A stretch of 62,236 bases of DNA, the filler included, from Babesia bigemina (taxonomy: Eukaryota): NCBI RefSeq assembly GCF_000981445.1. It is 9 parts of 9 records of this genome, joined end to end, with 100 filler letters (N's around TTAATTAATTAA, not from the genome) between each part and the next. Parts side by side here need not be neighbours in the genome. Positions count along the whole stretch, not along the records: positions 43,372 to 62,236 come from NW_012237122.1; 8 more parts are not named here. One strand, given 5' to 3'. Position numbers and translations under genes: made by a program. Below the pieces are notes generated by a model that saw only the letters and a program-made list of their open reading frames with translations, did not search any database and was not told where the DNA came from. Positions 326-62,236 of the stretch are shown piece by piece (positions within the stretch are counted from its first letter, which is position 1; the number at the start of each line of letters is the position of its first letter).

Positions 326-326
326 T

Positions 327-616: not shown

Positions 617-630
617 AAGTGGTGATTATT

Positions 631-15609: not shown

Positions 15610-18600
15610 ATGACCTCTATAAATCATTCTAATAACTTGTGCCTTGTCACCCTTCACTTCCCTCCTTCCACCTCTTGCCACTGCCCTGACCATGTGCCGC
15701 CTAGTGAGCTTGACAAGAAATTTGACAAATTTGATAACCTCAAAAACACCTCAAATAACAACCCTACTAACATCCTTACTAACCTCTGTTCCGGCCTCGA
15801 AAAATTCCTCGGCTTCAATCCATCCTCCAAAGGCTACAACGGCAGTGGTATTGTGTACTCTGACCTGGACAGGCTGTGTGACGGGGTGATGGGATTTTTG
15901 CTTAAATGCCTTGAGGGAAGTAAAGAGTTGTTAACACATTATAATCCTGAAATAACGGAGACTATCGAGCATTTAAATAATTCGATAGGCAAGGGACTTG
16001 GCGTTTCGGGATTTGCCTCCGCCATTGGGAAGGTTAAGAGCGGGCTGCAGGGGTATGAGAGGGTGATGGAGGAGAGGATTAAGGAGGTGAAAACGCCTTT
16101 GGAAACGATGCAAGAGAGATTTAGACAGTTAGAGACGTACTTAAATAATTTTAGTAAAAAGAACCTTAAGACTCAATTGACTCATGTCTCTGAACAGGCT
16201 AGGTTGTACTGGACTGAGGCCAATGGTGTTGCACTGTCAAGTGCAGATTTAGATGACGATCTTAAGAAAAAATTAGAACCTGCGGTGGAGGCAGTAAAAC
16301 AGGCCTCTAAAACGTTTAGAGACGTAACACAAAATTCACACGTTAATACAGAGGCTACTCGTGTTGATACGACATTGATAGAGCATGTAAAACACATAAA
16401 GATGGCGCTTGATTACCAAACCAGGAACGTTCAAACTGCGTTAAATAATGGCTACGAAGCAGTGCAAAAAAGCATAGATGATCTTATTAAGATTAGAGCA
16501 GCACATATGCAAGCTATCACGCGTAGCGTCAGTGACGCTAAAATAACAGTCAGTGATTATGTTGACAACTTCGACAATGAGTTCAAAACGCCCATTAGAG
16601 AAGCATTCGAGGAAATCATAAGAAAGCTTTCTGTAGTAGATTCAAAAAAAAACCAAACACAACTCCGGACGGATGTTGATGATATTAAGAAGAAGCTTAT
16701 GGCATTTGGTGATAAACTCAGCCAACATGTACAGAAGTTAGGAATTGGAATAGAGGCCGCGGAAAATACACGTGCAATGGCTGAACAAAAGGCTGGTGAA
16801 GCGTACGATAAGTTGAAAGAAGAAGACGAGGTTGGTAAAAATGTGAAGTCGAAGCTGGGTGAAGAAATTGACAATATTTTGAAAACTAGGAATAATATAT
16901 CTCTTGTCAATAATAAGCTGATAGAGCAAGTTACGGCGTTAGGAGAGTGGAAGTTAGCTGCGGAGAGAGACGCTGAAAAGGCGGTTAAGTGGTGTAACGC
17001 AATTGTTAAGGCGCTGAAGCCGGATAAAGGTATGACTTTTGCAACGAGGTTTCCAGAGATTACAAAGAAGGTGACTGAACTTAATGAAGCATATACTAAA
17101 ACTAAGCAACGCCTTCAAGAGGTTACTCAATTAACTAAGGAAGCTAATACAAAACTTGGGACTATAAAAGACGATGTCATGTCTCAACTGGGTGCTGATG
17201 TGTCCGGTGCTCTATTAGCGCTGAAGGAGACGTTGAAAGCTTCCAAAAACGTACAGAAGCTTGTGAATCATATCAAAGGTTTGAACAACCGAGATAACAA
17301 ATGTCTCGATATCGGTGGATATACAACAAGTGTTCATCTCAGTATTGACAAAATCACCGGGTCGGAAGTCATCGAACCATGGCTTAAGGAGGTTGAAAAA
17401 GAAATTGAGACACCGCTCATACAAGCTGCGCAGGCCGGTGCTACGGCGCTCGATGGTAAAATTAAAAGTGAAGTTAAAATTACACCATTGGCAACAGTTA
17501 ACGACACTGTGCATAAAGTCGACGATGGGGAAACAAAAACTAAAAAGGGTGATATCGAGCATGCCCTTAACATGGTAAAACTGCAGATGGATGAAATTGC
17601 CAAAAAAGTTGAAAAAAACAACGACGATGATACAATTAGGGGTTATCTGAATCATATTCAAACTGGACTCGGTGGCACAGACAGGTGGACATCGAATAAA
17701 GCCGGCGACGGACAAATTTCTGGGCTACAGAGAATCAATACTGCTATTGGCGCATTGCAATCCACTCTGTCGCAACAGCCAACTGCAATCTATAATGGAG
17801 TTGAGGGAATTAAGATGCAGCTACTTGGCGCCAGAAATGCATTGAAATCTGAGAAAGGGCAAGATGTCTTTTTCACTTTGGGAGATTTGAAGACAAAAAT
17901 TGGTCACGTCAGCAACGGGGACTCCCCTCCTGCAGATAGCCTCGGTGAACTCCGCGTACAACTAGCAGAACTACATGCCTCCGAGTACAACCAATTCGGC
18001 ACAATACTGACAGCTATTACAACAGCGCTTGAGAAAGTTAGTCAATTGGAGAACGTTCCAGGTGAATTAGAAAAGAGTAAAAAAGCGGTTGACAATTCAA
18101 TGGAGCAGTTGCACAAACACCTAAAAACACTGAAACTAAAAATCGAAGCAATAGAATCATCCGTAACAAAAGCTGAAGAATCATTGCAGCAGTACACATC
18201 GAACGTTGAGAGTGCCTTACATAACGCGCATAACAGCTCAATTAAAGCCATCAACCATCTCAATGAGCGCCTTACGACGACTGTCAATTCCAGTTTTGAA
18301 ACCATTAAAAGCGTGATAAGATCCCTCTTCGCGAAGCAGAAGCAGGCCGAGCTGGCCGCGCTGGAGAGCGTTGTCACGGCGCAGTTAAAGGAGATTGAGA
18401 GGGTTATTGAGAATGAAAAAGACAGTGGCGTAAAAGGTTTCATAAAGCGGTTGAACAGCGGTATCGCTGCAAATCTCGATAGATCTGTGCTGACTAACGA
18501 CACCACGTTCGTTCAGTTAGCTATGCGAGTTGCTGGTTATGTCGATCCGTTGTTTGAATTTATAAATGAAGAGTTAACACCGCCAAATTCGAGGTCTGCA

Positions 18601-21159
18601 ACGTCATCTATGTCTCAACCTGTGAACCCTTACGCTTCCAAGGTAGACAAAATCCGGAGTGCGCTGGCCACATTACTAACACGTCTTATCAATGGTAAGA
18701 GCAAAACATACAACTTTGATACTCAATTTGCGCTTGATCTGTCATCAGTTCTGGACGCTGTGAACGAGTTAAGCGCAGTGAAATTTGGCGAGGGCAAGCA
18801 TCCTGAGCTCCTCAACATTCTTAGGAGTGGCATGACAGATCTTGGTAAGGAATTAAGGCATGCCTATATTAATGCATATGATAAAGCTATGATGCCACAG
18901 GTTTTGAAAAATGACAAATTGACAATTGATGCTGAGAAATGTTCAAAAGTATGTCTCACTGTAATCTCCATCCTTGGCCTCTCATTAACCATGTTGAAGG
19001 TTAATTGCTGGAGTCTACGTGGACAGCAGATTAACAGAGATGTTGATCTCGGAAAACTATTAGCTGCAGAGGGATACCATGTGTCTGACCGAGGCGAGCA
19101 GAACGGGGAGCTCCAAGACAAGGACATAATGAAAGGTGACCAAGTTCACAAGAGACTGAGTTGGCCAATTAGCAGCGCCGCTACTGATCATTTGACAACG
19201 TGCAAGCCGAACAACAAAGCAGAGAAATTTGATATATTGGACATTCTCAGATGTCTCTCTGATCATCTTCATCAATATTACAGCGTTCGTCACTACGCCA
19301 CATCATCCGCCACTAGGCAACCGAGCAATATCTACGAAATGCTGTGCTGGCTCATAGGTCTTCCACATAATCCAGTCTATCCACAGTTGTCACTTACCGG
19401 CTTTACTGACCTATTTGAGAAACCGAAGGAAGAAAAGAACGCGGACAATGAAGCCGGGGAAGACATCGTTGCTATTAAGAGTCTCAATGACTTAACCTTG
19501 GAGGCCTACCCGGAAAGCATTACAGTAGACAAACTAACAACAACGCTTGGAGAGGTATGTTCTGGATCAAATTCCGTCCTGACTGCCATCCTAGGAAAGG
19601 GCCACGCGGGTGGCATATATGCTTGCGACTTCTCCAGCAACTCACTAAAATTACGATATGCGACCAATATGGACGCTCTAATTTGTCAGCTTTCGGATAT
19701 ACTGAAACGCGTTTACCGGCAGCTGTACTTCCTTTATCAACAATGTCATTACAATCAAAAACATAGTGGATGGCGCGACTGTTGGTATGGTAGGTACGTT
19801 GGAGGTTCGCACTGGCGATGCAATGACAAGCAATGTGTAACTCAAGACTGTAACCAAAAGGCCCACCAAACATCCAACCAAAACGCTAACCAAATGTGTA
19901 AGCAACACCCGAAGTGCGGGCTTAAGTCACCTCTCCAATCCTTCCTCGAAGATGGACTTCCTGGTTTTATGCCGCATACACTAATATCTGAAAAAGGTAA
20001 ATTAGCATGTTCTCAGAAAAACCACGGTAATCTGCTGTGTCATACGCCAATGGGCTTCAGAGATATAAGTGTAATGGCTTCTCATACGAATAGAGGTACA
20101 CACATCTATATGACTCTCTCCGATTTTTGCGGAGGTAAGTTTTCTCCCCTCACCAGGCTATGTAATTTATTTAATTGTCTACTTCCAAGTGCGCCAAAAT
20201 CACTAGATGATATGTTTGGGTTTTTATACCACTTATTACACAGATGGCATGATGATAATAACAAGGATCGTATGACGCATCGGAAAGAGGCGTTTAACGA
20301 TGCTGTCAAAGAGGCCTGTTTTGATGGAGGCTATGATCTCAGCGAAGTATCGTTATTGTTCACATCGAGAAGGCACACATCTTTCGTTTATAGCGATAAT
20401 AAGGCAAATAATTTATATCATAATGATGGTGATCTGTATAGCATACATAGACCCGAGGATACATGTTACACTGCTAACATGAAATGCGGTGCGTACGTAT
20501 CACCGTTGTCTATGGACATACATTCCACATTGTCGTCGAAACATAAAGCGCTATACCTGTCATGGGTCGTTTACTGTACCGAAACGTTCTACAGTCTTCT
20601 TCGAAAATTATACGATGAGTGCTATAATAATTGCGCATCGGCAAATGCGAAATGCTATAGTCACGGATGCTACAAGGAGTGCCTGATTTCAACTGGAAGC
20701 TTATTCCAAGAGTCGCAGCCTAGTACACACTGGCCGCAATGTAGCTCAATTCTGGATTGTAGAATGACACTGCCCACATTATATAGCTCTGGCATGATAT
20801 TTGGAGATAGGGAAATGCTCGAAGGACAGGTCGGCAGTAAACGATATATAAAAAGAACGTGTAAAGATTTCACTGACCAATTAAAAACTGTCATCGGTGA
20901 CACCTCGGTATTGTCTAAAATAATTCACAAAACAATTCCCGAATTCCTATTCACCATCCGCGCACCGTTCCTGTGGATGACCGTCGCGCTCTGGTCACTG
21001 TCCCTCTTCTACCTCATCTGCGTGATGGTTGGCAGACTGGATGTGCTGCATATCAAGTCACACCTGAGGATACCGTCGTCGCACAAGATAACGCCGCAAT
21101 CATTGTTGGCTGCAGCGCAAGTCGGAAGGCTTGCCAAGATATCGTATCTACAACCGTGA
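15610..21159 (+). CDS. ves-like variant surface antigen family protein (AKISYLQP tail class; CGLKSPLQSFLEDGL subtype)
   Basis: 1849-aa ORF with GIVYSDLDRLCDGVMGFL, Cys-rich C-terminus, TM and LDVLHIKSHLRIPSSHKIT..AKISYLQP. Alternative start at ATG 15889. Confidence 0.85.
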   Translation: MTSINHSNNLCLVTLHFPPSTSCHCPDHVPPSELDKKFDKFDNLKNTSNNNPTNILTNLCSGLEKFLGFNPSSKGYNGSGIVYSDLDRLCDGVMGFLLKCLEGSKELLTHYNPEITETIEHLNNSIGKGLGVSGFASAIGKVKSGLQGYERVMEERIKEVKTPLETMQERFRQLETYLNNFSKKNLKTQLTHVSEQARLYWTEANGVALSSADLDDDLKKKLEPAVEAVKQASKTFRDVTQNSHVNTEATRVDTTLIEHVKHIKMALDYQTRNVQTALNNGYEAVQKSIDDLIKIRAAHMQAITRSVSDAKITVSDYVDNFDNEFKTPIREAFEEIIRKLSVVDSKKNQTQLRTDVDDIKKKLMAFGDKLSQHVQKLGIGIEAAENTRAMAEQKAGEAYDKLKEEDEVGKNVKSKLGEEIDNILKTRNNISLVNNKLIEQVTALGEWKLAAERDAEKAVKWCNAIVKALKPDKGMTFATRFPEITKKVTELNEAYTKTKQRLQEVTQLTKEANTKLGTIKDDVMSQLGADVSGALLALKETLKASKNVQKLVNHIKGLNNRDNKCLDIGGYTTSVHLSIDKITGSEVIEPWLKEVEKEIETPLIQAAQAGATALDGKIKSEVKITPLATVNDTVHKVDDGETKTKKGDIEHALNMVKLQMDEIAKKVEKNNDDDTIRGYLNHIQTGLGGTDRWTSNKAGDGQISGLQRINTAIGALQSTLSQQPTAIYNGVEGIKMQLLGARNALKSEKGQDVFFTLGDLKTKIGHVSNGDSPPADSLGELRVQLAELHASEYNQFGTILTAITTALEKVSQLENVPGELEKSKKAVDNSMEQLHKHLKTLKLKIEAIESSVTKAEESLQQYTSNVESALHNAHNSSIKAINHLNERLTTTVNSSFETIKSVIRSLFAKQKQAELAALESVVTAQLKEIERVIENEKDSGVKGFIKRLNSGIAANLDRSVLTNDTTFVQLAMRVAGYVDPLFEFINEELTPPNSRSATSSMSQPVNPYASKVDKIRSALATLLTRLINGKSKTYNFDTQFALDLSSVLDAVNELSAVKFGEGKHPELLNILRSGMTDLGKELRHAYINAYDKAMMPQVLKNDKLTIDAEKCSKVCLTVISILGLSLTMLKVNCWSLRGQQINRDVDLGKLLAAEGYHVSDRGEQNGELQDKDIMKGDQVHKRLSWPISSAATDHLTTCKPNNKAEKFDILDILRCLSDHLHQYYSVRHYATSSATRQPSNIYEMLCWLIGLPHNPVYPQLSLTGFTDLFEKPKEEKNADNEAGEDIVAIKSLNDLTLEAYPESITVDKLTTTLGEVCSGSNSVLTAILGKGHAGGIYACDFSSNSLKLRYATNMDALICQLSDILKRVYRQLYFLYQQCHYNQKHSGWRDCWYGRYVGGSHWRCNDKQCVTQDCNQKAHQTSNQNANQMCKQHPKCGLKSPLQSFLEDGLPGFMPHTLISEKGKLACSQKNHGNLLCHTPMGFRDISVMASHTNRGTHIYMTLSDFCGGKFSPLTRLCNLFNCLLPSAPKSLDDMFGFLYHLLHRWHDDNNKDRMTHRKEAFNDAVKEACFDGGYDLSEVSLLFTSRRHTSFVYSDNKANNLYHNDGDLYSIHRPEDTCYTANMKCGAYVSPLSMDIHSTLSSKHKALYLSWVVYCTETFYSLLRKLYDECYNNCASANAKCYSHGCYKECLISTGSLFQESQPSTHWPQCSSILDCRMTLPTLYSSGMIFGDREMLEGQVGSKRYIKRTCKDFTDQLKTVIGDTSVLSKIIHKTIPEFLFTIRAPFLWMTVALWSLSLFYLICVMVGRLDVLHIKSHLRIPSSHKITPQSLLAAAQVGRLAKISYLQP

Positions 21160-23095: not shown

Positions 23096-23554
23096 ATGAC
23101 GCAGTGTATATGTGACAATAGATGTAACAAGCCTGATTGTAGGTGTTGCTACCTGTGTTGCATAAAATGTCGTCGTTGGTGTCCTGAGTGTCGCGAATTC
23201 TACAGTTCGCGCAGAAGCGGAGGGGAATGCCACACTAAGGATTGTCTTGGTTGTGACACTCGTACATGTCAATGTATATGTTGTAGAACTAAACAGATTA
23301 ACGCTCTTCGTGCCCAGCATGCCGCCAGTCAACAGCTTCGCTCTGATTCCTCCGGTTCCTCCTCCTCCCGTGCTCTGCCTCAGCCCGCCGGTCAACTGCG
23401 TTCCACTGGCGACTCTAATCCCTCTACTCCCTCTTCCTCAGCCGTCCTCCCTTACATCGTCGCTGCCGTCGCCCTCATCATCGTCGTCGTCTGCGTCATG
23501 GTCTACTTCCGCGTCCGGCCGTTCCACAGGGTGCGGTATCTACTGCGCAGCTGA
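23096..23554 (+). CDS. Small 18-Cys protein with Ser/Pro linker and C-terminal TM anchor (tail A: YFRVRPFHRVRYLLRS)
   Basis: 152 aa from the ATG in gaagATG context; Cys scaffold shared with three paralogues. Confidence 0.75.
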   Translation: MTQCICDNRCNKPDCRCCYLCCIKCRRWCPECREFYSSRRSGGECHTKDCLGCDTRTCQCICCRTKQINALRAQHAASQQLRSDSSGSSSSRALPQPAGQLRSTGDSNPSTPSSSAVLPYIVAAVALIIVVVCVMVYFRVRPFHRVRYLLRS

Positions 23555-23651: not shown

Positions 23652-23790
23652 TCCCTACTCCGCCATCGCCGCCGTCGTTTTCATCATCGTCGCCATCTGC
23701 GTCATGGTCTACTTCCGCTTTCCGGTGGGTCGCAACATCCGCGATTTCCTCGTCCGCAAGATACCCTTCTGCATCGCGTTCTACAGCTAA
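23652..23790 (+). pseudogene. Orphan TM/tail cassette, A/B hybrid (PYSAIAAVVFIIVAICVMVYFRFPVGRNIRDFLVRKIPFCIAFYS*)
   Basis: Manual translation; no start ATG ahead of the TM segment and an in-frame TGA just upstream. Confidence 0.6.
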
Positions 23791-24968: not shown

Positions 24969-24981
24969 GGGTTAGGGTGCG

Positions 24982-25208: not shown

Positions 25209-25664
25209 ATGAGTTGGGGGACGTGTCAGTGTGACCCTAAATGTACACAGGGTGAATGTAGATGCTGCTATTTGTGTTGTAAAAAATGTATACGATGTTT
25301 TTCTCATTGTCGAAAATTTTATCAAGGCCGCCTACGTGGAGAGGATTGCCATCGTGAAAATTGTGTTAAGTGTAATTCCGGTTGTCAATGTAACTGTTGT
25401 CTACGGAAACCTTATGCCTCCTCCAGTTCTTCCTCCTCTTCATCCAGTGCCGTCCAAGGCCCCGGTTCCTCTGGTTCCTCCTTCTCCAGTGCAGAGCCTC
25501 ACGCCGGTCAACTGCGTCACACGGGCGTCCCTGACTCACCATCCTCTCCTAACGTCCTACCCATCATCATCGTCCCCGTCGCCCTCATCATCGTCGTCAT
25601 CTGCGTCATGGTCTACTTCCGCATCCGTCCGTTCCACAGGGTGCGGTATCTACTGCGCAGCTGA
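25209..25664 (+). CDS. Small 18-Cys TM-anchored protein (tail A)
   Basis: 151 aa; conserved Cys scaffold, Ser-rich linker, TM and YFRIRPFHRVRYLLRS. Confidence 0.75.
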   Translation: MSWGTCQCDPKCTQGECRCCYLCCKKCIRCFSHCRKFYQGRLRGEDCHRENCVKCNSGCQCNCCLRKPYASSSSSSSSSSAVQGPGSSGSSFSSAEPHAGQLRHTGVPDSPSSPNVLPIIIVPVALIIVVICVMVYFRIRPFHRVRYLLRS

Positions 25665-25763: not shown

Positions 25764-25910
25764 CCCTACTCCGCCATCGCCGCCGTCATCGTTGCCCTCA
25801 TCGTCGCCATCATCCTGCTCGACCTGTGCATCTTCCGCTTCCCGGTGGGCCGCAACATCCGCGATTTCCTCGTCCGCAAGATACCGTTCTGCATCGCGTT
25901 CTACAGCTAA
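25764..25910 (+). pseudogene. Orphan TM/tail cassette B (..IILLDLCIFRFPVGRNIRDFLVRKIPFCIAFYS*)
   Basis: Same peptide as the in-frame C-terminus of 60492-61037, but no start codon. Confidence 0.6.
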
Positions 25911-28457: not shown

Positions 28458-28605
28458 TCAGCTGTAAAACGCGATGCAGAAGGGTATCTTGCGGATGAGG
28501 AAATCGCGGATGTTGCGGCCCACCGGGAAGCGGAAGATGCACAGGTCGAGCAGGATGATGGCGACGATGATGAGGGCGACGGGGACGGCGGCGATGGTTT
28601 TGGGG
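28458..28605 (-). pseudogene. Orphan TM/tail cassette B (PKTIAAVPVALIIVAIILLDLCIFRFPVGRNIRDFLIRKIPFCIAFYS*)
   Basis: Manual translation of the minus strand. Confidence 0.6.
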
Positions 28606-28691: not shown

Positions 28692-29183
28692 TTAGCTGCG
28701 CAGTAGATACCGCACCTTGTGGAACGGCCGGATGCGGAAGTAGATCATGACGCAGAGGACGACGATGATGAGGGCGACCGGGACGATGATGTAAGGGAGG
28801 ACGGCGGGGGATGATGATGAGGAAGAGGGGTTGGTGTGACTTTGTTGAATCACAGCTTGCTGCTGAAGACTGCGGGCAGAGGAGGAACCTGAGGAAGTGA
28901 CGCCACCGGAGGAGGTGCGGGAATGATGCTGAGTAGTAGATAGATGGGAACGAGTAAGGACGACAGGGCGTTGTCTTTCACAACACTCACATAGACATGT
29001 GCTTTTCTCACAATCATTACATCTCTGAGGTTTGCAGTCCCATGATCCACTTCTGCGCGATTGAGACAACGGAAGACATGGAAGACATTTTGATATCTTA
29101 CATTTTGCACAACACCAGTGACAGCAATTACACACCACACGCTCTTTACATTTTTTGTTACAACTACACGTTAATATGCTCAT
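28692..29183 (-). CDS. Small 18-Cys TM-anchored protein (tail A)
   Basis: 163 aa; gaagATG start context, Cys scaffold, TM and YFRIRPFHKVRYLLRS. Confidence 0.75.
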   Translation of the reverse strand: MSILTCSCNKKCKERVVCNCCHWCCAKCKISKCLPCLPLSQSRRSGSWDCKPQRCNDCEKSTCLCECCERQRPVVLTRSHLSTTQHHSRTSSGGVTSSGSSSARSLQQQAVIQQSHTNPSSSSSSPAVLPYIIVPVALIIVVLCVMIYFRIRPFHKVRYLLRS

Positions 29184-29442
29184 CTTCCTCTCTCCCTCCC
29201 ACTCCCCTCAGCCTGCAGACATATCAATCACCTGGCAACGCACTCACCAACTGCAACTCGTACCACTGCCGCTCCCACTTCCCTCAACCTGCAATCATAT
29301 CAATCACCTAAGCAGCACTCACCAACTGCAACACGTACCACTGCCGCTCCCAGTCCCCTCAACCTGCAAACATATCAATCACTCAAGCAGCACTCACCAA
29401 CTGCAACACGTACCACTGCCGCTTCCAGTCCCCTCATCAACA
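29184..29442 (-). repeat. ~75-bp intron/exon-like repeats (3 intron-like parts)
   Basis: Reverse complement of the 22693-23095 unit. Confidence 0.8.
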
Positions 29443-51294: not shown

Positions 51295-51582
51295 GTGGTG
51301 ACCAAAGTGCTGACCAAAGTGGTGACCAATGTGCTGACCAATGCCATGACCAAAGTGGTGACCTAGCACCTGACCAATGTGCTGACCAGCGTGCTGACCA
51401 ATGTGCTGACCAATGCCATGACCAATGCCATGACCAATGCCATGACCAAAGTGGTGACCAATGCCACGACCAACGTGGTGACCAATGTGCTGACCTACCA
51501 CCTGACCAACGTGGTGACCCAAGTGCTGACCAATGCCATAACCAAAGTGCTGACCAACGTGCTGACCAACGTGCTGACCAAG
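51295..51582 (+). repeat. 12-bp array
   Basis: Directly visible. Confidence 0.95.
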
Positions 51583-51585
51583 TTG

Positions 51586-51826
51586 ATGGTCACGGCAGCG
51601 AGGACATGGTCACGGCAGCGATGACATGGTCACAGCAGCGGTGACATCGTTACGGCAGCGATGACATGGTCACGGCAGCGATGACATAGTCACGGCAGCG
51701 ATGACATGGTTACAGCAGCGATGACAAGGTCACGGCAGCGATGACAAGGTCACGGCAGCGATGACATGGTCACGGCAGCGATGACATGGTTACGGCAGCG
51801 ATGACATGGTCTCGGCAGCGATGACA
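51586..51826 (+). repeat. 20-bp array
   Basis: Directly visible. Confidence 0.95.
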
Positions 51827-51850
51827 GTAGTGACTTAAGTGGTGATTATC

Positions 51851-52897
51851 ATCCACTCTACATCGCTCCCTAACCCACTCTACATCGCCCCTTTACCCAC
51901 TCTACATCGCCCCTTTATCCACTCTACATCGCCCCTTTATCCACTCTACATCGCTCCTTTATCCACTCTACATCGCCCCTTAACCCACTCCACATCGCCC
52001 CTTTATCCACTCTTCATCGCTCCCTAACCCACTCCACATCGCCCCTTTACCCACTCCACATCGCCCCTTAACCCACTCTACATCGCTCCCTAACCCACTC
52101 TACATCGCCCCTTATCCACTCTACATCGCCCCTTTAACTACTCTACATCGCCCCTTTATCCACTCTACATCGCTCCTTTATCCACTCTACATCGCCCCTT
52201 AACCCACTCTACATCGCCCCTTACCCACTCTACATCGCTCCTTGATCCACTCCACATCGCCCCTTTACCCACTCTACATCGCCCCTTAACCCACTCTACA
52301 TCGCTCCTTTATCCACTCCACATCGCCCCTTTATCCACTCTACATCGCTCCCTTATCCACTCTACATCGCTCCTTTGTCCACTCCACATCGCTCCCTTAT
52401 CCACTCTACATCGCCCCTTTACCCACTCTACATCGCCCCTTATCCACTCTACATCGCTCCTTATCCACTCCACATCGCTCCCTAACCCACTCTACATCGT
52501 CCCTTAACCCACTCTACATCGCCCCTTTACCCACTCTACATCGCCCCTTTACCCACCCTTCATCGCCCCTTTACCCACTCCACATCGCCCCTTATCCACT
52601 CTACATCGCTCCCTAACCCACTCTACATCGCCCCTTTATCCACTCTACATCGCCCCTTAACCCACTCTACATCACTCCCTAACCCACACTACATCGCCCC
52701 TTTACCCACTCTACATCGCTCCTTTATCCACTCTACATCGCCCCTTAACCCACTCTACATCGCCCCTTTACCAACTCCACATCGCTCCCTTATCCACTCC
52801 ACATCGCCCCTTTATCCACTCTACATCTCCCCTTAACCCACTCCACATCGCCCCTTTACCCACTCCTCATCGCCCCTTAACCCACTCTACATCGCCC
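51851..52897 (+). repeat. 21-22-bp array 5' of antigen ORF
   Basis: Directly visible. Confidence 0.95.
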
Positions 52898-53130: not shown

Positions 53131-56100
53131 TTGAATGACATCCAGTCCAAGTTGCAGCAGGTTAAAAAGCTTGGAGAGAGTCTTAAAGGATTGACTGAAG
53201 AAAACAGTTGTAAAAATCTCTTAGAGAATTTATGTTCCGGCCTCGAAACTTTCCTCGGCTTCAACTCTGAGACTAAAGGCTACGACGGCTCTGGCATTGT
53301 GTACTCCGACCTGGATAGGCTGTGTGACGGGGTGATGGGATTTTTGAGTGGTGTTCTCAGTAACATCAAAGGCCATTTAGGGCAGCATAAAAATGAAATT
53401 AATGATGCAATTGAAGCTTTGAAGACCAATAAACACGGCGGCAAAAAAGGTTTTAATGTCGCGATTGGAAAGGTGGTCGCAGGGGTGCGGGGGTATAATG
53501 ATGCTGTCATGAAGTCGAATAAAAAGGTGAGTGATGTATTAACAAAAATGCAGAAAGATGCAGATAAATATTCAGCAGAAAGATTAGAAAAATTGTTGCC
53601 TCCACGAAATGCGGATGACCCCGTGAAAATTGTTAATCTCATCGTAGCCGCCGACCAGACAGTGGAAGAATGTCTAAAAGAAGCCGACAAATTCAACAAC
53701 GCTTTAGATATGAAAAACAATGCGGAGGAATTAAGAAACGCAATTAGAGACTTAAATCCTAATTTGAGTACTAAAATAGAGAACGTGCGTGAAAATATTA
53801 AGCATGAACGTGAAGGACTGAACAAGTTGGCAGGACATGAAAAGAATGATTTACAGAGTATGGAAGCAAAAATTAAAACAAAGCTTCACGACGTCAAATG
53901 TAAGGTAAATGAGCATATTAAAAAAAAGGTTAAGCAACTGGTGGAGAGGCTGAAGGAAAAGGTTCGTGAAATTAGAGCAAAACTTGTTGACATTGAAGAC
54001 AAGTTGGCGCAGTACGTCAAGGAACTTGAGAGCTGGATGAAAGAGGCCAAGAAAGTCATCGATACCTTATTGACAACGGTAGACAAAATTAAAAAGGAAG
54101 TCGATGGTGATGCAGCGACCAAAAATCTGCCACAACTTCAGGCCGCGATTAAAAAAATCGGAGAAGAACTTGGACATCGGGTTGGCGATTTGGACACTTG
54201 GAAGGGTAAGGCGGAGGGTGTGCTGAGCGAAGCTATTACGAAGACGACGGAAGTGCATGATGATTTGGAGCCGAAGGAAAACAAAAGGGATGCACGTGAT
54301 AAAACGCAAATTGGTAAAGCCTTAGATGGAATTACAAGTGCTAATACACAGATTGGCGTAATAAAAAAAAGTCTCCAAGATGAAGTTGCTAATTTGGATA
54401 AGTGGAAGACGGAGGCAGGAGATATTATTGGCAAGGCCGAGCGTAAATGTAAAAAAATACTTGCAGACGTTGATACGAATGGCTCAACAATTAGGGAAAA
54501 AGCAAAGCTCTTACAAGATTTGGCTGGTAAACTTTTAACGGCTTACAGCTCAGCATATACTAAAATTAAGAGGTTGCCAGGTGAACTGAAATCGATGCTA
54601 TCTAAACTCGAAGAGGTATATCAGCATAAATTAAAAGATGTACATAACAAGGTGATCAGTGCTATTGGCGAAGAAACAGCCCCGGGGAAAGCGACTGGCA
54701 TTTTGGACGTTCTTAACAGGTTGGATGAGCATGTTAAAAATGATCTGGTTAGTCTTAGGGGTAGGATTAAAAATGAAGTAATTGATGCATACGTCAAGAT
54801 GATGAAGGAAATACAGATTACCAGTAATAACGGCGCCGGTACTATTACGCTGAATGTGCCCAGAAGAGATGGGGAGGGGAAGCCTCAGGGCCAGACGCCG
54901 GTAACTCTTAGCGTTGCTGTTGCTGGAAGAATTGCTGACGGTCTAAATGGTAATAATTCACCCATTGCGAAGTGGCTTAATCAGGCTGCAAGTGGACTGC
55001 AGAATAGTATAATTCCAGACTTCAAGTACAAATATCTCTGGACAGACAAAAATCCACTTGACAATGTTGATGCACTCGTCAAGATTCTTCGAACTGGACT
55101 AAAAAATCATGAGAATAAATCAATCATCGACGCTATTGGCGACAGTTTGAACGAAGAACTTCAACAGTTGATCAAGGACAAAGAAAGCATACATTTGAAA
55201 ACAGCAACTGAATCTCCCGACAATGCTCTCATGCCAGAATATAAAGCATCGACAACACGCACTCCTACTGAAGGAGAGCTTAGAGCGGCCATAAAAGATA
55301 TTAAAAGCCACGTTCAATACATGAAGCGTGATAGTCCAACCGATGTCGACGTTGAAAGCTTTCAAGGTTACAACTCTGCGCATACATCTCTCAACATCCA
55401 AAGCGAGAAAGGTGCTAGAGGCGATATTACACAAAAGATTGCCGAAGTGGACAACGCTTTGTCAGACTTCAAGGCGGGTGATCATGTGGACCAACACGGC
55501 CATGGAGCCGTGAGTGAAACCAAAAAGAAAATTACTTCAGCATTCAGAGTGATTGAAAATGAGCTCGAATGGCTGACTAAACTTGTTAGTGATGAGAGCG
55601 GTGGAGATGCATATTCAAACAATGACAATAAAGGTGTCAAGGTGTATCTCGGGCAGCTGCAAAAGGGACTCGAAAGTGAACAGATTCCGTATGCGTTCGC
55701 TAAAGGGCTAAAAATCATTCATGACTCGCTTCACCGTTTGCAAGGCGAAACTCTGCCTCCGCAAATATCTGCCATCCAAGTGGCCGTTGAATCAATTACA
55801 TCAGTTATTACTAAGCTGAGATCAACATTAAGTGGTCAGGTCACAACGAAGTTGGAAGCGTTAAGAACGCATGGCCTTAATGATGGCGACGCACCGTGGA
55901 CAGCTGACGGTCAACCAACCAAAGGTCTCATGACAATCAAGGCGGAAATCGAAAAAATTAAATCCACCAACGTACCCGGTGTTGAAACCAAACTAAAAGA
56001 CCTCTGCACAGCAATTCGATCCATTTGCAGAGACGCCAAGGAATACTTGGAAGGTATGAAAAATGGCAGAATCGATGTTGAACTGAAAAAAATTAGAGAT

Positions 56101-58968
56101 GATATCCACAAACTCCGAACAAATAACTTGGACAACGCGATCAAACAAACTGACACATTCCTCACGCAATTTGCCGACAAAGCCGGAGAACAAATCGTCA
56201 AAGATCTCGAACAGGACGCGAACATTGAAGTGACACAAGCCGAAACTGATATCATTCATGAATTACGTAAAAGGTATATCGCCTTTATCAAATTGCTGCT
56301 CGCAGACTTCTCCACTAAATGCAAGAGTGAGCTCAATGGGCTTCCCGCCGCAATAACGGCGGACGCCGACAAGGGTGCGAAAGGCTTTATGAAGCAATTC
56401 GAAGATAAGTTCATTAAGGACGATAAATGTATCGAGGGCATCAAGAAAATCGAGGCTACATCACCCGCACAAAAACAATCTCCGCTGACTCAGGCTGCCG
56501 GAAAGCTAAATCACGCAGTAAGACGCTTTTTCAACTATTATCACAAACAAGCGGATTTCGCTTCCGACTTCACCAAACTCAAGCCGACTAAGGATGCCCT
56601 TCACACTTTGCTTGACGGCATACGCGAGTCGCAGCGCTTCGACTACCAATTTCGTCAGAATCTGGATTCATTTAACGACGTTATTGGCAAACTCGCTCCT
56701 CAACAATTTGGCGTCTCCTCCACGTCGATGCTGCAATCTCTCAAGGAAGGCTTTACCGCCCTAGTCACTGCGCTCGACAAGGCCTACATCTCGACCTACG
56801 ACAGTGAGACGTTTGGCGGTGAGATGTTTGAGAGACAGAAATTAACGCCGTATGGCGCAAAATTCGCCAAAATATGCCTCACCGTGGTCTGCACCCTAAA
56901 GGCCACGTTGACCGACTTGACGCACAATTGCAAGAGTCTACGTGGACAGCAAATTAATAAGTCCACCGACGTGGGAAGATCGTTTGTCGCCCACGGCTAC
57001 GCGGTCTCCGATGCTACGCTGCAGAACGGTGAGTTGCAAAACAAACCGACAGTGGCGGGGGAGAACGTTGCTAAGCGGCTGCTGCTAGCAATTAGCGGTG
57101 CCACAGACAACGCACATCTTAGATGGTGTGAATCGAACAAGCAGAGAAAAGACAATCACTTCCACGTCTTCGACGCCATTGACTGCATATTCAGCCACTT
57201 CGAGCAGTACAACGAACTCTGCCACCTGCTCACGGCATCATCGAGGCAACATCCGTGCTCCGTGTACGACATATTAATCTGGCTCAGCGGTTTCCCGTAC
57301 ACTGCAGTATATGCTACGATGCGTGATATCACCATCAGTGACCTATTTGACAACCCGCATAAGAAGGCGGCAGGCGACGACGAACTTGAGCTCACATCGA
57401 CTGACATGGCAGCCCAATCCATAACAGCACACCCCCGGAACATATCGTATAACTACGTACGTAAAGCCGTGGAACACATCTGTGCAACGTCGTATGACGT
57501 ATTGACTGCCGTTGTCGGCACTGGCGACTCCAGGACCGTCTACGCCTCCGACTTCTGCAACAACTCATTCAACTTCCATTACCCATCCGATCCGTCGGAC
57601 TGCATGGACATGCTGCTGGACCTACTGCGCCGATTGTTGCCCGTGTTCCGGTTCTTGGAACTGCAGTGTAACATCAAGCCCGAACACCACGGCTGGTCAC
57701 AGTGCCGCTACGGGAGGGACATCCCTACAACGAAATCGCAGTGTAACGAGCACTCAAACGAAGAACCAAACGGCCAACCAAAGTGCCAAGTAAACTGTCA
57801 ACCAACGTCCCCGCTAATGTTATACCTCAGTGACAGCCTCCCTGGCCATCTGCCGCACCAACTGCAGTCAGTGGGATGCAGGGCGAAATGCAGCACCTGC
57901 TCCAAGAGCGCTCCAGGGCAACCGTGCCTGCTTCCTCTCGGATTCAAGGGCTTCTCAGGAAGCACCAAAACGGGCAGACAGTTGCGTGACGCAATCAAGA
58001 TCTTCATCGGTACAGGCTTAATATCCTCACTGATGTGCCTTCTGCCGAAGCCACCATCGACGCTGCCCGAGCACTTCCAGTTTGTATTCACGTTGGTTGG
58101 TGCGTTTAATGCTAACAGAGATGTCAACTCAAATGCTGTCCACGCTGCGTTTGTGAAGGCAATAAGGAAGCAGTCCATCGACTTGTATGCGGAGCCATCA
58201 GAACTCACAGGTGCGCTTCAGAAGGCTTATAACAGCAACAAGCAGCACGACGGTACGGAGCATCCCAAAGCTTCAGACGCCGACTTGTCAACATTGTCTA
58301 AAGCAAAAACATGTAATTATCCGAACAAGGATGTTCACTGCGCTCCGTACCTGTCCACGTTGCACAGTGATGCATACCACTACGCCGCCGAGAAGCACGC
58401 CGGTCTCTACCTGTCATGGGCAGTGTACTTACCGTGGTCGTTCTGGCAGTGTCTTGAATCTTTGTTCAGGGCGTTTACCAATATATCCTGCCAGGATTGG
58501 GCATGTCGTCGCTGTACGCACGGCACGGCTTGTAAACGGGGTAAGCATGGCGCTGCCTATAATTGCCAGTGCAAAGGCCTAGTTGAATGCCGCGGTGTCA
58601 TAAGCACGTTGTATAGTTTCGGATTCACGTTCGGCAATCCAGCAACGCTTTCAGCTGCAGAGGGAAAAAGGTATTGCCACAATTTCCACCGACAACTCCA
58701 CAATGTATTAAATTCCAACTACTTCAGAACGCTGTTCGAAAAGTGCGACGAATTCATTTTCACCATCCGCGGACCGTTCCTGTGGATGACCGTCGCACTC
58801 TGGTCACTGTCCCTCTTCTACCTCGTCTGCGTCATGGTTGGCAGACTGGATGTGCTCCACATCCGCTCACACCTGAGGATACCTTCGTCGCACAAGATAA
58901 CAGCGCAATCATTGTTGGCGGCGGCGCAAGTCGGAAGGCTTGCCAAGATATCGTATCTACAGCCGTGA
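53131..58968 (+). CDS. ves-like variant surface antigen family protein (AKISYLQP tail class)
   Basis: 1945-codon ORF with all family motifs; track start is TTG and the first in-frame ATG is 53335. Confidence 0.85.
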   Translation: MNDIQSKLQQVKKLGESLKGLTEENSCKNLLENLCSGLETFLGFNSETKGYDGSGIVYSDLDRLCDGVMGFLSGVLSNIKGHLGQHKNEINDAIEALKTNKHGGKKGFNVAIGKVVAGVRGYNDAVMKSNKKVSDVLTKMQKDADKYSAERLEKLLPPRNADDPVKIVNLIVAADQTVEECLKEADKFNNALDMKNNAEELRNAIRDLNPNLSTKIENVRENIKHEREGLNKLAGHEKNDLQSMEAKIKTKLHDVKCKVNEHIKKKVKQLVERLKEKVREIRAKLVDIEDKLAQYVKELESWMKEAKKVIDTLLTTVDKIKKEVDGDAATKNLPQLQAAIKKIGEELGHRVGDLDTWKGKAEGVLSEAITKTTEVHDDLEPKENKRDARDKTQIGKALDGITSANTQIGVIKKSLQDEVANLDKWKTEAGDIIGKAERKCKKILADVDTNGSTIREKAKLLQDLAGKLLTAYSSAYTKIKRLPGELKSMLSKLEEVYQHKLKDVHNKVISAIGEETAPGKATGILDVLNRLDEHVKNDLVSLRGRIKNEVIDAYVKMMKEIQITSNNGAGTITLNVPRRDGEGKPQGQTPVTLSVAVAGRIADGLNGNNSPIAKWLNQAASGLQNSIIPDFKYKYLWTDKNPLDNVDALVKILRTGLKNHENKSIIDAIGDSLNEELQQLIKDKESIHLKTATESPDNALMPEYKASTTRTPTEGELRAAIKDIKSHVQYMKRDSPTDVDVESFQGYNSAHTSLNIQSEKGARGDITQKIAEVDNALSDFKAGDHVDQHGHGAVSETKKKITSAFRVIENELEWLTKLVSDESGGDAYSNNDNKGVKVYLGQLQKGLESEQIPYAFAKGLKIIHDSLHRLQGETLPPQISAIQVAVESITSVITKLRSTLSGQVTTKLEALRTHGLNDGDAPWTADGQPTKGLMTIKAEIEKIKSTNVPGVETKLKDLCTAIRSICRDAKEYLEGMKNGRIDVELKKIRDDIHKLRTNNLDNAIKQTDTFLTQFADKAGEQIVKDLEQDANIEVTQAETDIIHELRKRYIAFIKLLLADFSTKCKSELNGLPAAITADADKGAKGFMKQFEDKFIKDDKCIEGIKKIEATSPAQKQSPLTQAAGKLNHAVRRFFNYYHKQADFASDFTKLKPTKDALHTLLDGIRESQRFDYQFRQNLDSFNDVIGKLAPQQFGVSSTSMLQSLKEGFTALVTALDKAYISTYDSETFGGEMFERQKLTPYGAKFAKICLTVVCTLKATLTDLTHNCKSLRGQQINKSTDVGRSFVAHGYAVSDATLQNGELQNKPTVAGENVAKRLLLAISGATDNAHLRWCESNKQRKDNHFHVFDAIDCIFSHFEQYNELCHLLTASSRQHPCSVYDILIWLSGFPYTAVYATMRDITISDLFDNPHKKAAGDDELELTSTDMAAQSITAHPRNISYNYVRKAVEHICATSYDVLTAVVGTGDSRTVYASDFCNNSFNFHYPSDPSDCMDMLLDLLRRLLPVFRFLELQCNIKPEHHGWSQCRYGRDIPTTKSQCNEHSNEEPNGQPKCQVNCQPTSPLMLYLSDSLPGHLPHQLQSVGCRAKCSTCSKSAPGQPCLLPLGFKGFSGSTKTGRQLRDAIKIFIGTGLISSLMCLLPKPPSTLPEHFQFVFTLVGAFNANRDVNSNAVHAAFVKAIRKQSIDLYAEPSELTGALQKAYNSNKQHDGTEHPKASDADLSTLSKAKTCNYPNKDVHCAPYLSTLHSDAYHYAAEKHAGLYLSWAVYLPWSFWQCLESLFRAFTNISCQDWACRRCTHGTACKRGKHGAAYNCQCKGLVECRGVISTLYSFGFTFGNPATLSAAEGKRYCHNFHRQLHNVLNSNYFRTLFEKCDEFIFTIRGPFLWMTVALWSLSLFYLVCVMVGRLDVLHIRSHLRIPSSHKITAQSLLAAAQVGRLAKISYLQP

Positions 58969-59109: not shown

Positions 59110-59584
59110 CCAGGCAAAGTGCTAACCTAGCAACCAGGCAAAGTGATAAGCAAGCACCCAGGCAAAGTGGTAAGCTAGCAACCAGGCAAAGTGATAAGCT
59201 GGCACACAGGCAAAGTGTTAAGCTGGCAACCAGGCAAAGTGTTAACCTAGCACCCAGGCAAAGTGCTAACCTAGCAACCAGGCTAAGTGCTGAGCTGGCA
59301 CCCAGGCTAAGTGCTAACCTAGCATCCAGGCAAAGTGGTAAGCTAGCACACAGGCAAAGTGGTAAGCTAGCACCCAGGCAACGTGTTAAGCTGGCACCCA
59401 GGCAAAGTGGTAAGCAAGCACCCAGGCAACGTGCTAACCTAGCACCCAGGCAAAGTGTTAACCTAGCACACAAGCTAAGTGCTAAGCTGGCACACAGGCA
59501 AAGTGCTAAGCTGGCATTCAGGCAACGTGTTGACCTAGCACACAGGCAAAGTGATAAGCTGGCACCCAGGCGAAGTGCTAAGCT
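59110..59584 (+). repeat. 24-bp array
   Basis: Same unit as 21305-22183. Confidence 0.95.
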
Positions 59585-60078
59585 GGCGGATGAACCGTAA
59601 TTTGGTAGGTGTTGTAGCACGTTGATTGCCTGGTGCGTTGAGCTGTGCGTTGACTGTGAGAGGTGTCCGCGTTGCCTATTGAGTCAGTGTCACGTGAGGC
59701 TGGGTGATTGGTTGCTAACGTAGGCGGTCGTAAGGACCGCGGCGGGTGACCTAAGTCGTGTGTTGCGAGTCACTGGCACGTGGCGTAATAGGCGTTGGCC
59801 TGGTTAGGTAGCGTTTATGGGCGGCAATGTAGCGATTGTTAACATCACATTTGGGCACGTAGCCGACGTGCTCCGCCAGTATGGCGCCGATACCGGGGCT
59901 CGTAGCACGGTGCTGCTGCACTGTGGGAGTTGAGCGCACGGGTCGCTGCAATTTTAATGGCGTCGCCAATATTCAATAATTTAGAGTGGCTGTTGGCGCT
60001 GATCACATGCGTCGCGTCAGGGCAGCTGTGGTATCCCGGGCAGCGTGGGTGTCCGTGGCCCGGGCTGGGGGGATACAG
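59585..60078 (+). repeat. Conserved ~495-bp element (copy 4)
   Basis: Matches 22184-22679. Confidence 0.8.
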
Positions 60079-60090
60079 GGGTGAGGTGAG

Positions 60091-60491
60091 TGTTGATGAG
60101 GGGACTGGGAGCGGCAGTGGTACGTGTTGCAGTTGGTGAGTGCTGCTTGAGTGATTGATATGTTTGCAGGTTGAGGGGAGTGGGCGCGGCAGTGGTAGTG
60201 TTGCAGTTGGTGAGTGCTGCTTGAGTGATTGATATGTTTGCAGGTTGAGGGCAGTGGGAGCGGCAGTGGTAGTGTGGCAGTTGGTGAGTGCGTTGCTAGG
60301 TGAGTGATATGTTTGCAGGTTGAGGGGACTGGGAGCGGCAGTGGTACGTGTTGCAGTTGGTGAGTGCTGCTTGCGTGATTGATATGTTCGCAGGTTGAGG
60401 GGAGTGGGAGCGGCAGTGGTAGTGTTGCAGTTGGTGAGTGCGTTGCTGGGTGATTGATATGTTCGCAGGTTGAGGGGAGTGGGAGGGGAAG
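60091..60491 (+). repeat. ~75-bp intron/exon-like repeats (5 intron-like parts)
   Basis: GTGAGTGC..GATATGTT(T/C)GCAG units. Confidence 0.8.
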
Positions 60492-61037
60492 ATGACGATG
60501 GGTTGGAGGAAGACGTGCAGATGTGATACTGGTTGTATACAGTTTCAACCATGTAAATGCTGCCCATGGTGTTGTAAAGAATGTATTAAAGGCATTTATA
60601 CCAGTTGCGATGTATGTGCAGCAAATTCCTATCTGAAGCGGCTTAGGAAGCAATGCAATCCTAACGTATGTAAAGCCGGCAAAACGGATTGCACTAATAT
60701 TTACAAATGTGAATGTAACTGTTGTCGACAGAAATGTAAAGAGAGGGATCCCGTCTGCACGCCCCTCGCTCCTCCCCCTCCACCGCCTCCCGCTGATTCC
60801 TCCGATGTTCAGGATCACGCCGCCGGTCAAGAGCTTCTCCCCCGTACCGAAGCTCTCGAACAAGAGAACAATTCTCCACCTTTCCGCCCTAACCCCCAAA
60901 CCATCGCCGCCGTCATCGTTGCCATCATCGTCGCCATCATCCTGCTCGACCTGTGCATCTTCCGCTTTCCGGTGGGCCGCAACATCCGCGATTTCCTCGT
61001 ACGCAAGATACCCTTCTGCATCGCGTTTTACAGCTGA
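60492..61037 (+). CDS. Small Cys-rich (18+2 Cys) TM-anchored protein (tail B: LDLCIFRFPVGRNIRDFLVRKIPFCIAFYS)
   Basis: 181 aa; same start context and Cys scaffold as the paralogues, Pro-rich linker and TM. Confidence 0.75.
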   Translation: MTMGWRKTCRCDTGCIQFQPCKCCPWCCKECIKGIYTSCDVCAANSYLKRLRKQCNPNVCKAGKTDCTNIYKCECNCCRQKCKERDPVCTPLAPPPPPPPADSSDVQDHAAGQELLPRTEALEQENNSPPFRPNPQTIAAVIVAIIVAIILLDLCIFRFPVGRNIRDFLVRKIPFCIAFYS

Positions 61038-61171
61038 TCGCAGCAATTTGTTAGCGCAAACATCGTCATCCATTTTCCACTGATCACCTAACTGCCAACT
61101 GACATCTAATGTCTAGACGGAGTAATGATTGCGTTGATGGCCAATCGCATGGGCAGTGAGTTGACTATAAC

Positions 61172-61282
61172 CCCGCCCCTTACATCATCGCTCCCATACT
61201 CATCATCATCATCGTCATCTGCGTCATGAGCTACTTCCGCATCCGGCCGTTCCACAGGGTGCGGTATCTACTGCGCAGCTAA
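61172..61282 (+). pseudogene. Orphan TM/tail cassette A (PAPYIIAPILIIIIVICVMSYFRIRPFHRVRYLLRS*)
   Basis: Manual translation; matches the C-termini of the other three small genes. Confidence 0.6.
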
Positions 61283-61342
61283 TGACAATAAAGCAACTGG
61301 CAACTGACGTCTAATGTTGTTGACAGAGTAATGATTGCGTTG

Positions 61343-62236
61343 ATGACCAATGTGCTGACCAACGTGCTGACCAACGTGTTGACCAAAGTGCTGACCAAAG
61401 TGCTGACCAATGCCACGACCAAAGTGTTGACCAAGGTGCTGACCAAGATGCTGACCAACGTTTTGACCAATGCCATGAACAATGTGCTGACCAAGGTGTT
61501 GACCTAAGTGGTGACCAAAGTGGTGACCAAAGTGGTGACCAACGTGCTGACCAATGTGCTGACCAACGTGCTGACCAATGCCATGACCAAAGTGTTAACC
61601 AAAGTGCTGACCAAAGTGGTGACCAAGGTGCTGACCAATGTGTTGACCAAGGTGCTGACCAAGGTGCTGACCAAAGTGCTGACATGGTTACGGCAGCGAT
61701 GACATGGTCACGGCAGCGATGACATGGTCACGGCAGCGATGACATGGACACAAGTGGTGATTATTATCCACTCCACATCGCCCATTAACCCACTCTACAT
61801 CGCTCCCTAACCCACTCTTCATCGCCCATTAACCCACTCTACATCGCCCCTTTATCCACTCTACATCGCCCCTAATCCACTCCACATCGCTCCCTAACCC
61901 ACTCCACATCGCTCCCTTATCCACTCTACATCGCCCCTTATCCACTCTACATCGCCCCTTATCCACTTTACATCGCTCCCTAACCCACTCTACATCGCCC
62001 CTTAATCCACTCCACATCGCTCCCTAATCCACTCCACATCGCTCCTTTACCCACTCTACATCGCTCCCTAATCCACTTCACACCGCCCCTTAACCCACTC
62101 TACATCGCTCCCTTATCCACTTCACACCGCCCCTTTATCCACTCTACATCGCCCCTTATCCACTCTACATCGCTCCCTAATCCACTCTACATCGCCCCTT
62201 AACCCACTCTACATCGCCCCTTTATCCACTCTACAT
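61343..62236 (+). repeat. 12-bp array (61343-61683), 20-bp array (to ~61750) and 21-22-bp array (61767 to window end)
   Basis: Same units and order as elsewhere; predicts another antigen ORF beyond the window. Confidence 0.93.

What the first reader, a model, noticed from the sequence alone, without database searches (positions are those of the whole stretch)
60880..61282. Swappable membrane anchors: each small gene carries a spare alternative TM/tail cassette, in reciprocal order
Seen: three genes end in tail A (..YFRIRPFHRVRYLLRS) and are followed ~90-100 nt later by an intact but start-less tail B (..FRFPVGRNIRDFLVRKIPFCIAFYS). The gene at 60492 does the reverse, using tail B in frame with spare tail A at 61172-61282. 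Spare cassettes have no internal stops and differ at synonymous sites (ttt/ttc, ccc/ccg, ggt/ggc). Both tails are followed by related 3' sequence (aactg(g/c)caactgac.tctaatgt). At 23652 and 25764 an in-frame TGA lies just upstream with no AG in between, which argues against simple alternative splicing. Inference: recombinational exchange of the anchor or cytoplasmic tail.
Basis: partly seen in the sequence, partly recalled or inferred. Interest (0 to 1): 0.75.

Follow-up and report, generated by a model that had tools for sequence, protein, structure and literature searches.

The report
Surface genes carrying spare membrane anchors
In the cattle parasite Babesia bigemina, small cysteine-rich membrane-protein genes carry an intact second anchor-and-tail segment behind their stop codon, likely silent and kept fresh by copying from sister genes, which likely also swaps the working tail now and then.

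Summary
Observation confirmed. Four loci of a Babesia bigemina multigene family (58 database proteins, all named ones from this species) encode 151-181 aa Cys-rich, single-TM proteins without a signal peptide. Each is followed 87-134 nt after its stop by an intact second TM+tail+3'UTR unit; three are A then B, one is B then A. The spare cannot be reached by in-frame splicing at 2 of 4 loci and has no usable in-frame start at 4 of 4. It is not decaying: spare B tails differ mostly at synonymous sites. Recombination between A and B is visible: 25-26 nt exact A tracts inside B spares, chimeric TMs in 3 of 13 spares and 1 of 54 used anchors. Best reading: a tandem 3'-end duplicate refreshed by unprogrammed gene conversion, as known for neighbouring ves1 genes, with occasional tail swaps. 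Reverse order was seen once, one outside locus may be B-B-B, and no RNA evidence was obtained. Spare tails are slightly too conserved for a purely passive model unless the family is large, so a selected reservoir stays open.

The parts
60492..61037 (+). L4 gene: 181-aa Cys-rich single-TM protein, tail B used
   Evidence: same locus as annotated model P0002
60894..61037 (+). L4 used B anchor (TM + 25-aa tail)
61038..61171 (+). L4 spacer: B-type 3'UTR, shared UTR core, then degenerate start of the 12-mer array
61172..61282 (+). L4 spare A anchor, intact, no usable start; TM has atypical residues incl. a Ser
61283..61345 (+). Second copy of shared 3'UTR core
61344..61683 (+). 12-mer tandem array that ends both these genes and several large ves1-like genes
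60097..60485 (+). L4 array of 34-35 nt GT-AG intron-like units and 40-41 nt exon-like units; inferred 5'UTR introns (in-frame TGA just after the last acceptor)
59590..60090 (+). Conserved 5' block (about 90% identical at all four loci), inferred promoter/5'UTR
59110..59584 (+). 24-mer array between the upstream large gene and L4 (same array at 21309-22183 and 24338-24470)
23096..23554 (+). L1 gene, 152 aa, tail A used (anchor 23450-23554)
23653..23790 (+). L1 spare: chimera, B-type start, A-type TM end (25 nt exact to L2 used A), B tail
25209..25664 (+). L2 gene, 151 aa, tail A used (anchor 25560-25664)
25764..25910 (+). L2 spare B anchor
28692..29183 (-). L3 gene, 163 aa, tail A used (anchor 28796-28692)
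28458..28604 (-). L3 spare B anchor with a 26-nt A-type tract in the TM
53335..58968 (+). Large ves1-like ORF upstream of L4 (context; label recalled, no Pfam VESA hit)
15610..21159 (+). Large ves1-like ORF upstream of L1 (context; label recalled)

Best explanation
Each of these four genes ends in two tandem 3'-end units (anchor, tail, 3'UTR), of which the second is likely untranslated and likely kept intact by unprogrammed gene conversion from the many sister genes, a process that would also now and then rewrite the working anchor or tail. Steps: (1) shown: the duplicated unit runs from the Pro-rich juxtamembrane codons to the first degenerate repeats of the 12-mer array that normally ends the gene; (2) shown: no common in-frame route into the spare; (3) shown: A/B mosaics exist in spare and used positions; (4) inferred: conversion tracts start in the low-complexity TM codons and end in the shared UTR core, so either slot can be overwritten with A or B, which gives both orders without a switch; (5) inferred: same-type pairs would be longer direct repeats and tend to collapse, which would favour mixed pairs; (6) inferred from topology: the proteins are small variant surface or exported proteins with the Cys-rich domain outside and a basic tail inside.
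For: Unit boundaries: UTR core after all 8 tails, its 3' end matches the 12-mer arrays (nhmmer E about 1e-3; arrays). No route in: L1 and L2 have no stop-free acceptor, L3 and L4 have some but no conserved matching donor; spacer ATGs are out of frame or stop at 4 of 4 loci. Not decaying: spare-spare B tails 222/234 identical against 272/325 in the following UTR, 10 synonymous and 2 non-synonymous pairwise differences; amino-acid changes 2/300 in 12 spare tails against 8/825 in 33 used tails. Conversion marks: exact 25 and 26 nt A tracts in the L1 and L3 spares; chimeric TM in 3 of 13 spares against 1 of 54 used anchors (p 0.02), so the spare TM is looser, as expected if unread; both juxtamembrane types occur in both slots (used 27:6, spare 3:8). 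Breakpoints differ from case to case and no conserved inverted repeat flanks the units. Tail type needs 4 changes on a 19-row ectodomain tree, 0% of 200 bootstrap trees have 1. Ectopic conversion and 3'-end recombinants (ves1ba) are reported for ves1 genes of this species (PMC4066756, sections 22 and 25 read).
Against: My simple passive-refresh simulation predicts 4.9, 7.1 or 11.3 tail changes in 12 spares for 120, 60 or 30 slots; 2 were seen (P 0.13, 0.03, 0.001), so the passive model needs a large family or position-biased copying, and 9 of the 12 spares were found only because they were annotated as ORFs. The juxtamembrane types are skewed between slots (p 0.002), so exchange is not free. 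9 outside gene models have the spacer in frame with the spare. All four window loci are mixed pairs, which a selected A+B rule would also give. AU test does not reject A monophyly (p 0.17) and label shuffles reach 4 changes in 94 of 500. Step 5 (collapse) is untested. No transcript data.
Confidence: 0.55

Rival explanations
1. The spare is a selected local reservoir: recombination within the locus (deletion or conversion between the two TM-coding repeats) promotes it to the working anchor and changes where the protein is sent.
For: 4 of 4 window loci pair unlike tails; a 53-nt, 89% identical in-register repeat joins used and spare TM at L1, so an in-frame exchange is feasible; P0050 is a used tail swap and 6 of 33 used B anchors carry the juxtamembrane type typical of spares; spare tails are more conserved than the passive model predicts for small families.
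Against: Reverse order at only 1 of 9 readable loci; consecutive models P0028, P0054, P0057 all end in tail B (DNA not seen); no fixed breakpoint or recombination site; swaps can come from any paralogue, so the local spare is not needed.
Confidence: 0.2
2. The spare is expressed at RNA level at some loci, either by splicing from a donor in tail A into the spacer (two-TM isoform) or as a 61-69 aa mini-protein from a spacer ATG.
For: 3 gene models join A to B through the spacer and 6 are spare-only or near spare-only ORFs; the spacer has branch-point-like and AG motifs; spare tails are as conserved as used ones.
Against: The annotation is an ab initio consensus (PMC4066756 section 8), so the models are not transcript evidence; only in-frame cases can be annotated; 4 of 4 window loci lack the in-frame route yet keep intact spares; the spacer ATGs lie in degenerate 12-mer repeat sequence; spare TMs are more often mosaic.
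Confidence: 0.15
3. An old duplication now decaying, with A-first and B-first loci as two non-recombining clades, or an assembly artefact.
For: AU test does not reject one A clade; the assembly is fragmented in these repeat-rich contigs.
Against: Synonymous bias and no stops; mosaics; the A tail-spacer-B junction is bridged by one contig of an independent run (X1 record 1, 31 letters on the short side, depth 3.3) and by 5 outside gene models.
Confidence: 0.05
4. The second unit is kept as a nucleotide-level 3'UTR element (RNA stability, localisation or termination), not for its coding frame.
For: The UTR core is conserved after all 8 tails and shares a short motif with ves1-like 3'UTRs.
Against: Synonymous sites in spare tails vary as much as the UTR (pS 0.19 against 0.16), which points to coding constraint at the source; similarity to ves1-like UTRs is not significant (E 8.2).
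Confidence: 0.05

Closest known systems
B. bigemina ves1a/ves1b and recombinant ves1ba genes (PMC4066756)
   Same: Same genome neighbourhoods; no signal peptide, one C-terminal TM and short tail; two tail types; 3'-end recombinants and ectopic conversion reported.
   Different: About one tenth the size; no detectable homology to the C-terminal 148 aa of the window's large ORFs (hhalign probability 0.3%); none of the 5 large-ORF 3' ends examined shows an A or B cassette.
B. bovis smORF (PMC6630957, PMC9477259, passages)
   Same: Small multicopy genes interspersed among ves genes.
   Different: smORF has a signal peptide and no TM; these have a TM and no N-terminal hydrophobic segment. PMC4066756 found no smORF homologues in B. 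bigemina.
BbigVes2 (PMC4066756)
   Same: Short, species-restricted, ves-linked family.
   Different: ves2 lacks the TM and tail and has a predicted signal peptide.
Silent-cassette conversion systems (Borrelia vls, Anaplasma msp2, Neisseria pilS, trypanosome VSG; recalled, no call)
   Same: Start-less intact cassettes acting as conversion donors.
   Different: Those vary the exposed domain from an archive into one expression site; here the cassette is the conserved anchor and sits behind each gene.
Shufflon and phage tail-fibre inversion; IgM membrane/secreted alternative 3' ends (recalled, no call)
   Same: Alternative C-termini for one gene.
   Different: Units are direct, not inverted; no fixed sites; no common splice route.

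Membership tests
VESA1 (ves1) | Homology to the conserved VESA1 C-terminal domain | tested here: not met
   hhalign of 15 family proteins against 5 window large-ORF C-termini: probability 0.3%, E 0.21; no Pfam family at cut-off. The comparison set is ves1-like by recall only.
VESA1 (ves1) | No signal peptide, single C-terminal TM, short tail | tested here: met
   Hydropathy peak about 3 near the C-terminus, at most 0.84 in the first 40 aa, 5 basic residues after the TM at 4 of 4
VESA1 (ves1) | Display on the infected red-cell surface | not testable with these tools
   Needs localisation
smORF | Signal peptide, no TM | tested here: not met
   against PMC9477259 Table 1
smORF | Position among ves genes | tested here: met
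   L1 and L4 lie about 2 and 1.5 kb behind large ves1-like ORFs on the same contig; L2 and L3 contigs are too short to tell
BbigVes2 | No TM or tail; signal peptide | tested here: not met
   definition from PMC4066756 section 22
Site-specific C-terminal switch (shufflon-like) | Fixed recombination sites, inverted cassettes | tested here: not met
   Direct orientation, no inverted repeat shared by the loci; breakpoints differ between mosaics
Silent-cassette gene conversion system | Intact start-less cassettes sharing sequence tracts with expressed copies | tested here: met
Silent-cassette gene conversion system | Directional, repeated transfer from cassette to expressed gene | tested here: inconclusive
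   One used tail swap (P0050) and 6 of 33 used B anchors with the spare-typical start; donor and direction unknown
Alternative terminal exon | Conserved donor and in-frame acceptor before the second unit | tested here: not met
   No stop-free acceptor at L1 and L2; no conserved phase-matched pair at L3 and L4

The most novel reading that the evidence does not exclude
B. bigemina has an undescribed family of miniature variant surface proteins in which every gene keeps a selected spare anchor, and recombination toggles the protein between two tails that send it to different places: variation of address rather than of epitope.
Probability: 0.15. Interest if true: 0.85.

Novelty: new variant of a known kind. 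Interest (0 to 1): 0.5.

Why it matters
The family has at least 50 members in one genome, all annotated as hypothetical and often with gene models that run through the likely 5'UTR introns in the wrong frame; I found no description of it in the searches named below. It is a candidate third class of ves-linked variant protein in a major cattle parasite, with two nearly invariant tails. The spare units give a clean natural test of how gene conversion alone can keep unread coding sequence intact, and, if the reservoir reading holds, a new way to vary a surface protein.

Tried and rejected
No whole genome is held for this window, so A/B order could not be tabulated genome-wide; outside loci were read from predicted proteins only. 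Run search: no RNA holder on record. Two runs guessed to be RNA (X13, X14) each hold one 3.3-4.5 kb contig with a diverged B cassette and no A match; contigs cannot show strand or level and most of the contig lies downstream, so nothing is concluded. Summed contig depths over A and B tails (X2) are not copy numbers and were not used. Reads were laid on L4 only; an A-first reference has no read data. The reverse order was not confirmed in another sample (table 8 was cut). 0 of 22 family gene models are in the filtered expression table of PMC9806345; another isolate and multi-mapping can explain this. Six ids each were absent from the supplements of PMC9531838 and PMC4066756 (one index file not searched). 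Metagenome scan for the B-tail motif: 0 matches. Pfam: nothing at cut-off. PDB sequences: 0. ESM Atlas: best 0.85, lead only. AlphaFold model pLDDT 54.6, only the TM helix confident, so no fold search was run. The deep profile search could not be run, so distant relatives in other Babesia species are not excluded. Stop read-through or frameshift as a general route: rejected, stops intervene at 4 of 4. N-terminal extension by the upstream mini-exons: rejected, in-frame TGA after the last acceptor at 4 of 4 and 0 of 15 upstream ATGs reach the ORF after full splicing. Earlier scan findings: none.

Full report
Source and setting. The window is eukaryotic: every named homologue of the small genes is a Babesia bigemina hypothetical protein (36 hits of 214 candidates; 15 of 20; 8 of 159; 3 more cluster members; 58 protein ids in all). 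It is a chain of small contigs joined by N linkers; L1, L2, L3 and L4 lie on four different contigs. The rest of the window is large ORFs of 1,700-1,900 aa that I take to be ves1-like from recall of their tails (no Pfam VESA hit) and satellite arrays. No whole genome was available.

Observation. A six-frame search gives four A and four B tails, paired at four loci. L1, L2 and L3 use A and carry a spare with tail B 98, 99 and 87 nt behind the stop; L4 uses B and carries a spare A 134 nt behind. Similarities are far beyond chance. All eight tails are followed by the same UTR core. The L1 spare is a chimera with an A-type TM end. One contig of an independent run bridges A tail, spacer and B start (X1 record 1, depth 3.3, 31 letters on the short side; a second record has only 30). 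Outside the window, A then B can be read from 5 gene models (P0032, P0035, P0036, P0047, P0056). B then A is seen only at L4: 1 of 9 readable loci. What follows the 33 used B anchors is mostly unknown, and three consecutive models on one contig all end in B.

The gene. Each locus has a conserved 5' block, an array of intron-like and exon-like units, then one exon. In 4 of 4 loci the coding frame meets TGA two bases after the last acceptor and none of 15 upstream ATGs reaches it after splicing, so the array is likely 5'UTR and the proteins start at the listed ATG. They have 19-22 Cys, a Ser/Pro-rich stalk, one TM, five basic residues after it and no N-terminal hydrophobic segment; 18 invariant Cys in 15 aligned members. 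This is the VESA1 or PNEP-like layout described in PMC9477259 (passages), but homology to the window's large-ORF C-termini was not found. Surface display is inferred, not shown. The predicted structure is low-confidence outside the TM.

Can the spare be read in place? At L1 and L2 every spacer AG leads into an in-frame stop; L3 and L4 have stop-free acceptors but no conserved donor of the right phase; spacer ATGs are out of frame or closed at all four. Nine outside models do have the spacer in frame, but the annotation is an ab initio consensus (PMC4066756 section 8), only in-frame cases can be called, and the ATG-bearing end of the spacer matches the 12-mer array. So the duplicated unit is simply the whole gene end, from juxtamembrane codons to the first array repeats, and no route of expression is common to the loci.

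Is the spare decaying? No. B tails vary at 6 synonymous and 1 non-synonymous site (p 0.0007); A tails at 2 and 2 (not significant). Spare-spare B tails are 222/234 identical against 272/325 in the UTR behind them (pairs are not independent). Tail amino-acid changes are 2/300 in 12 spares and 8/825 in 33 used copies (P0002 dropped as a second model of L4). The TM part is looser in spares: true A/B chimeras in 3 of 13 spares and 1 of 54 used anchors (p 0.02; two further spares with atypical residues and one misclassified used row were not counted as chimeras).

Is there exchange? Yes. The L1 and L3 spares hold 25 and 26 nt tracts identical to the used A of L2, against 8-13 nt in the pairs without a tract. 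P0050 is a used gene with a B-type start of the TM and an A tail. Two juxtamembrane types occur in both slots, unevenly (27:6 used, 3:8 spare, p 0.002). On a tree of 19 full Cys-rich domains (16 of the 58 ids plus L1-L3; the rest lack the full domain in their models) tail type changes 4 times and no bootstrap tree groups the A rows, but the AU test does not reject one A clade (p 0.17), 94 of 500 shuffles are as low and long branches meet. Such mixing could also come from crossovers in the stalk that move the whole 3' block. Breakpoints vary and no shared inverted repeat exists.

Mechanism. The simplest model is two slots per locus, bounded by low-complexity TM codons and the shared UTR core, each overwritten from time to time by a paralogue. 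That gives intact spares, mosaics, both orders and rare swaps of the working tail. Ectopic conversion and 3'-end recombinants are reported for ves1 in this species (PMC4066756 sections 22 and 25). A simulation tuned to the observed synonymous divergence predicts 4.9, 7.1 or 11.3 tail changes in 12 spares for 120, 60 or 30 slots; 2 were seen (P 0.13, 0.03, 0.001). The passive model therefore survives only for a large family or biased copying, and the spare sample is biased towards intact ORFs.

Literature seen. PMC4066756: abstract, passages, sections 8, 22 (part 1 of 2), 25, supplements searched by term. PMC10463595, PMC10471129, PMC5660447, PMC6630957, PMC9477259: passages. PMC9806345: passages and supplement searches. 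PMC9531838: supplement search only. Others: search listings only. None of the passages describes this family or spare anchors; PMC4066756 notes in general that species-specific genes often have a conserved C-terminus and TM. Searches: (six locus tags, 0 papers). The library lacks most subscription papers, figures were not seen, and bioRxiv supplements are closed, so absence from print is not established. Comparisons with vls, msp2, pilS, VSG, shufflons and IgM are recalled.

Verdict. Real feature; an apparently undescribed B. bigemina family with duplicated 3' ends; recombination shown, programmed or selected switching not shown; no expression evidence. New variant of a known kind, interest 0.5.

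Noticed in passing
window 22699-23089, 24976-25199, 29196-29436 (-), 60097-60485: Arrays of 3-5 units of a 34-37 nt GT-AG intron-like piece plus a 40-41 nt exon-like piece upstream of each small gene; an in-frame TGA follows the last acceptor at 4 of 4, so they are likely 5'UTR introns. Many database models translate through them in other frames and are probably wrong.
   Followed up: partly
window 7146, 21159, 39835, 51155, 58968: The five large ves1-like ORFs with a complete end have two tail types (2 and 3 copies). The ORF ending at 51155 has the tail of one type and a 3'UTR that changes to the other type part-way, which looks like another 3'-end recombinant.
   Followed up: no
window 109-1759, 39961-40545, 51295-52897, 61344-62236: A fixed order of satellites (12-mer, 20-mer, 22-mer) lies between gene ends and the next large gene; a 24-mer array precedes the small genes.
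   Followed up: no
window 29832-30721 and 30762-32930: Telomere-like repeat next to an N linker, followed by a 22-mer subtelomeric-type array; the window is a chain of 9 small contigs.
   Followed up: no
window 61256-61279 and 60987-61001: Tail A holds an RxL motif with the same four residues listed as PEXEL-like for SBP3 and mtm in PMC9477259 Table 1, and tail B holds an RxxL; such short motifs arise by chance and are normally N-terminal.
   Followed up: no
window 23495-23509 versus 21030-21050: The end of the A-type TM shares five residues with the TM end of one ves1-like tail type; profile comparison found no significant homology.
   Followed up: yes
proteins P0028, P0054, P0057 (CDR71722-71724): Three consecutive gene models on one 83-kb contig all end in tail B, the middle one with an A-type TM start; possibly a three-unit array. 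DNA not seen.
   Followed up: partly
runs X13, X14 on window 60912-61100: A single diverged B cassette with two tail substitutions at high depth in two runs guessed to be RNA; may be an outlier family member or a related species.
   Followed up: no
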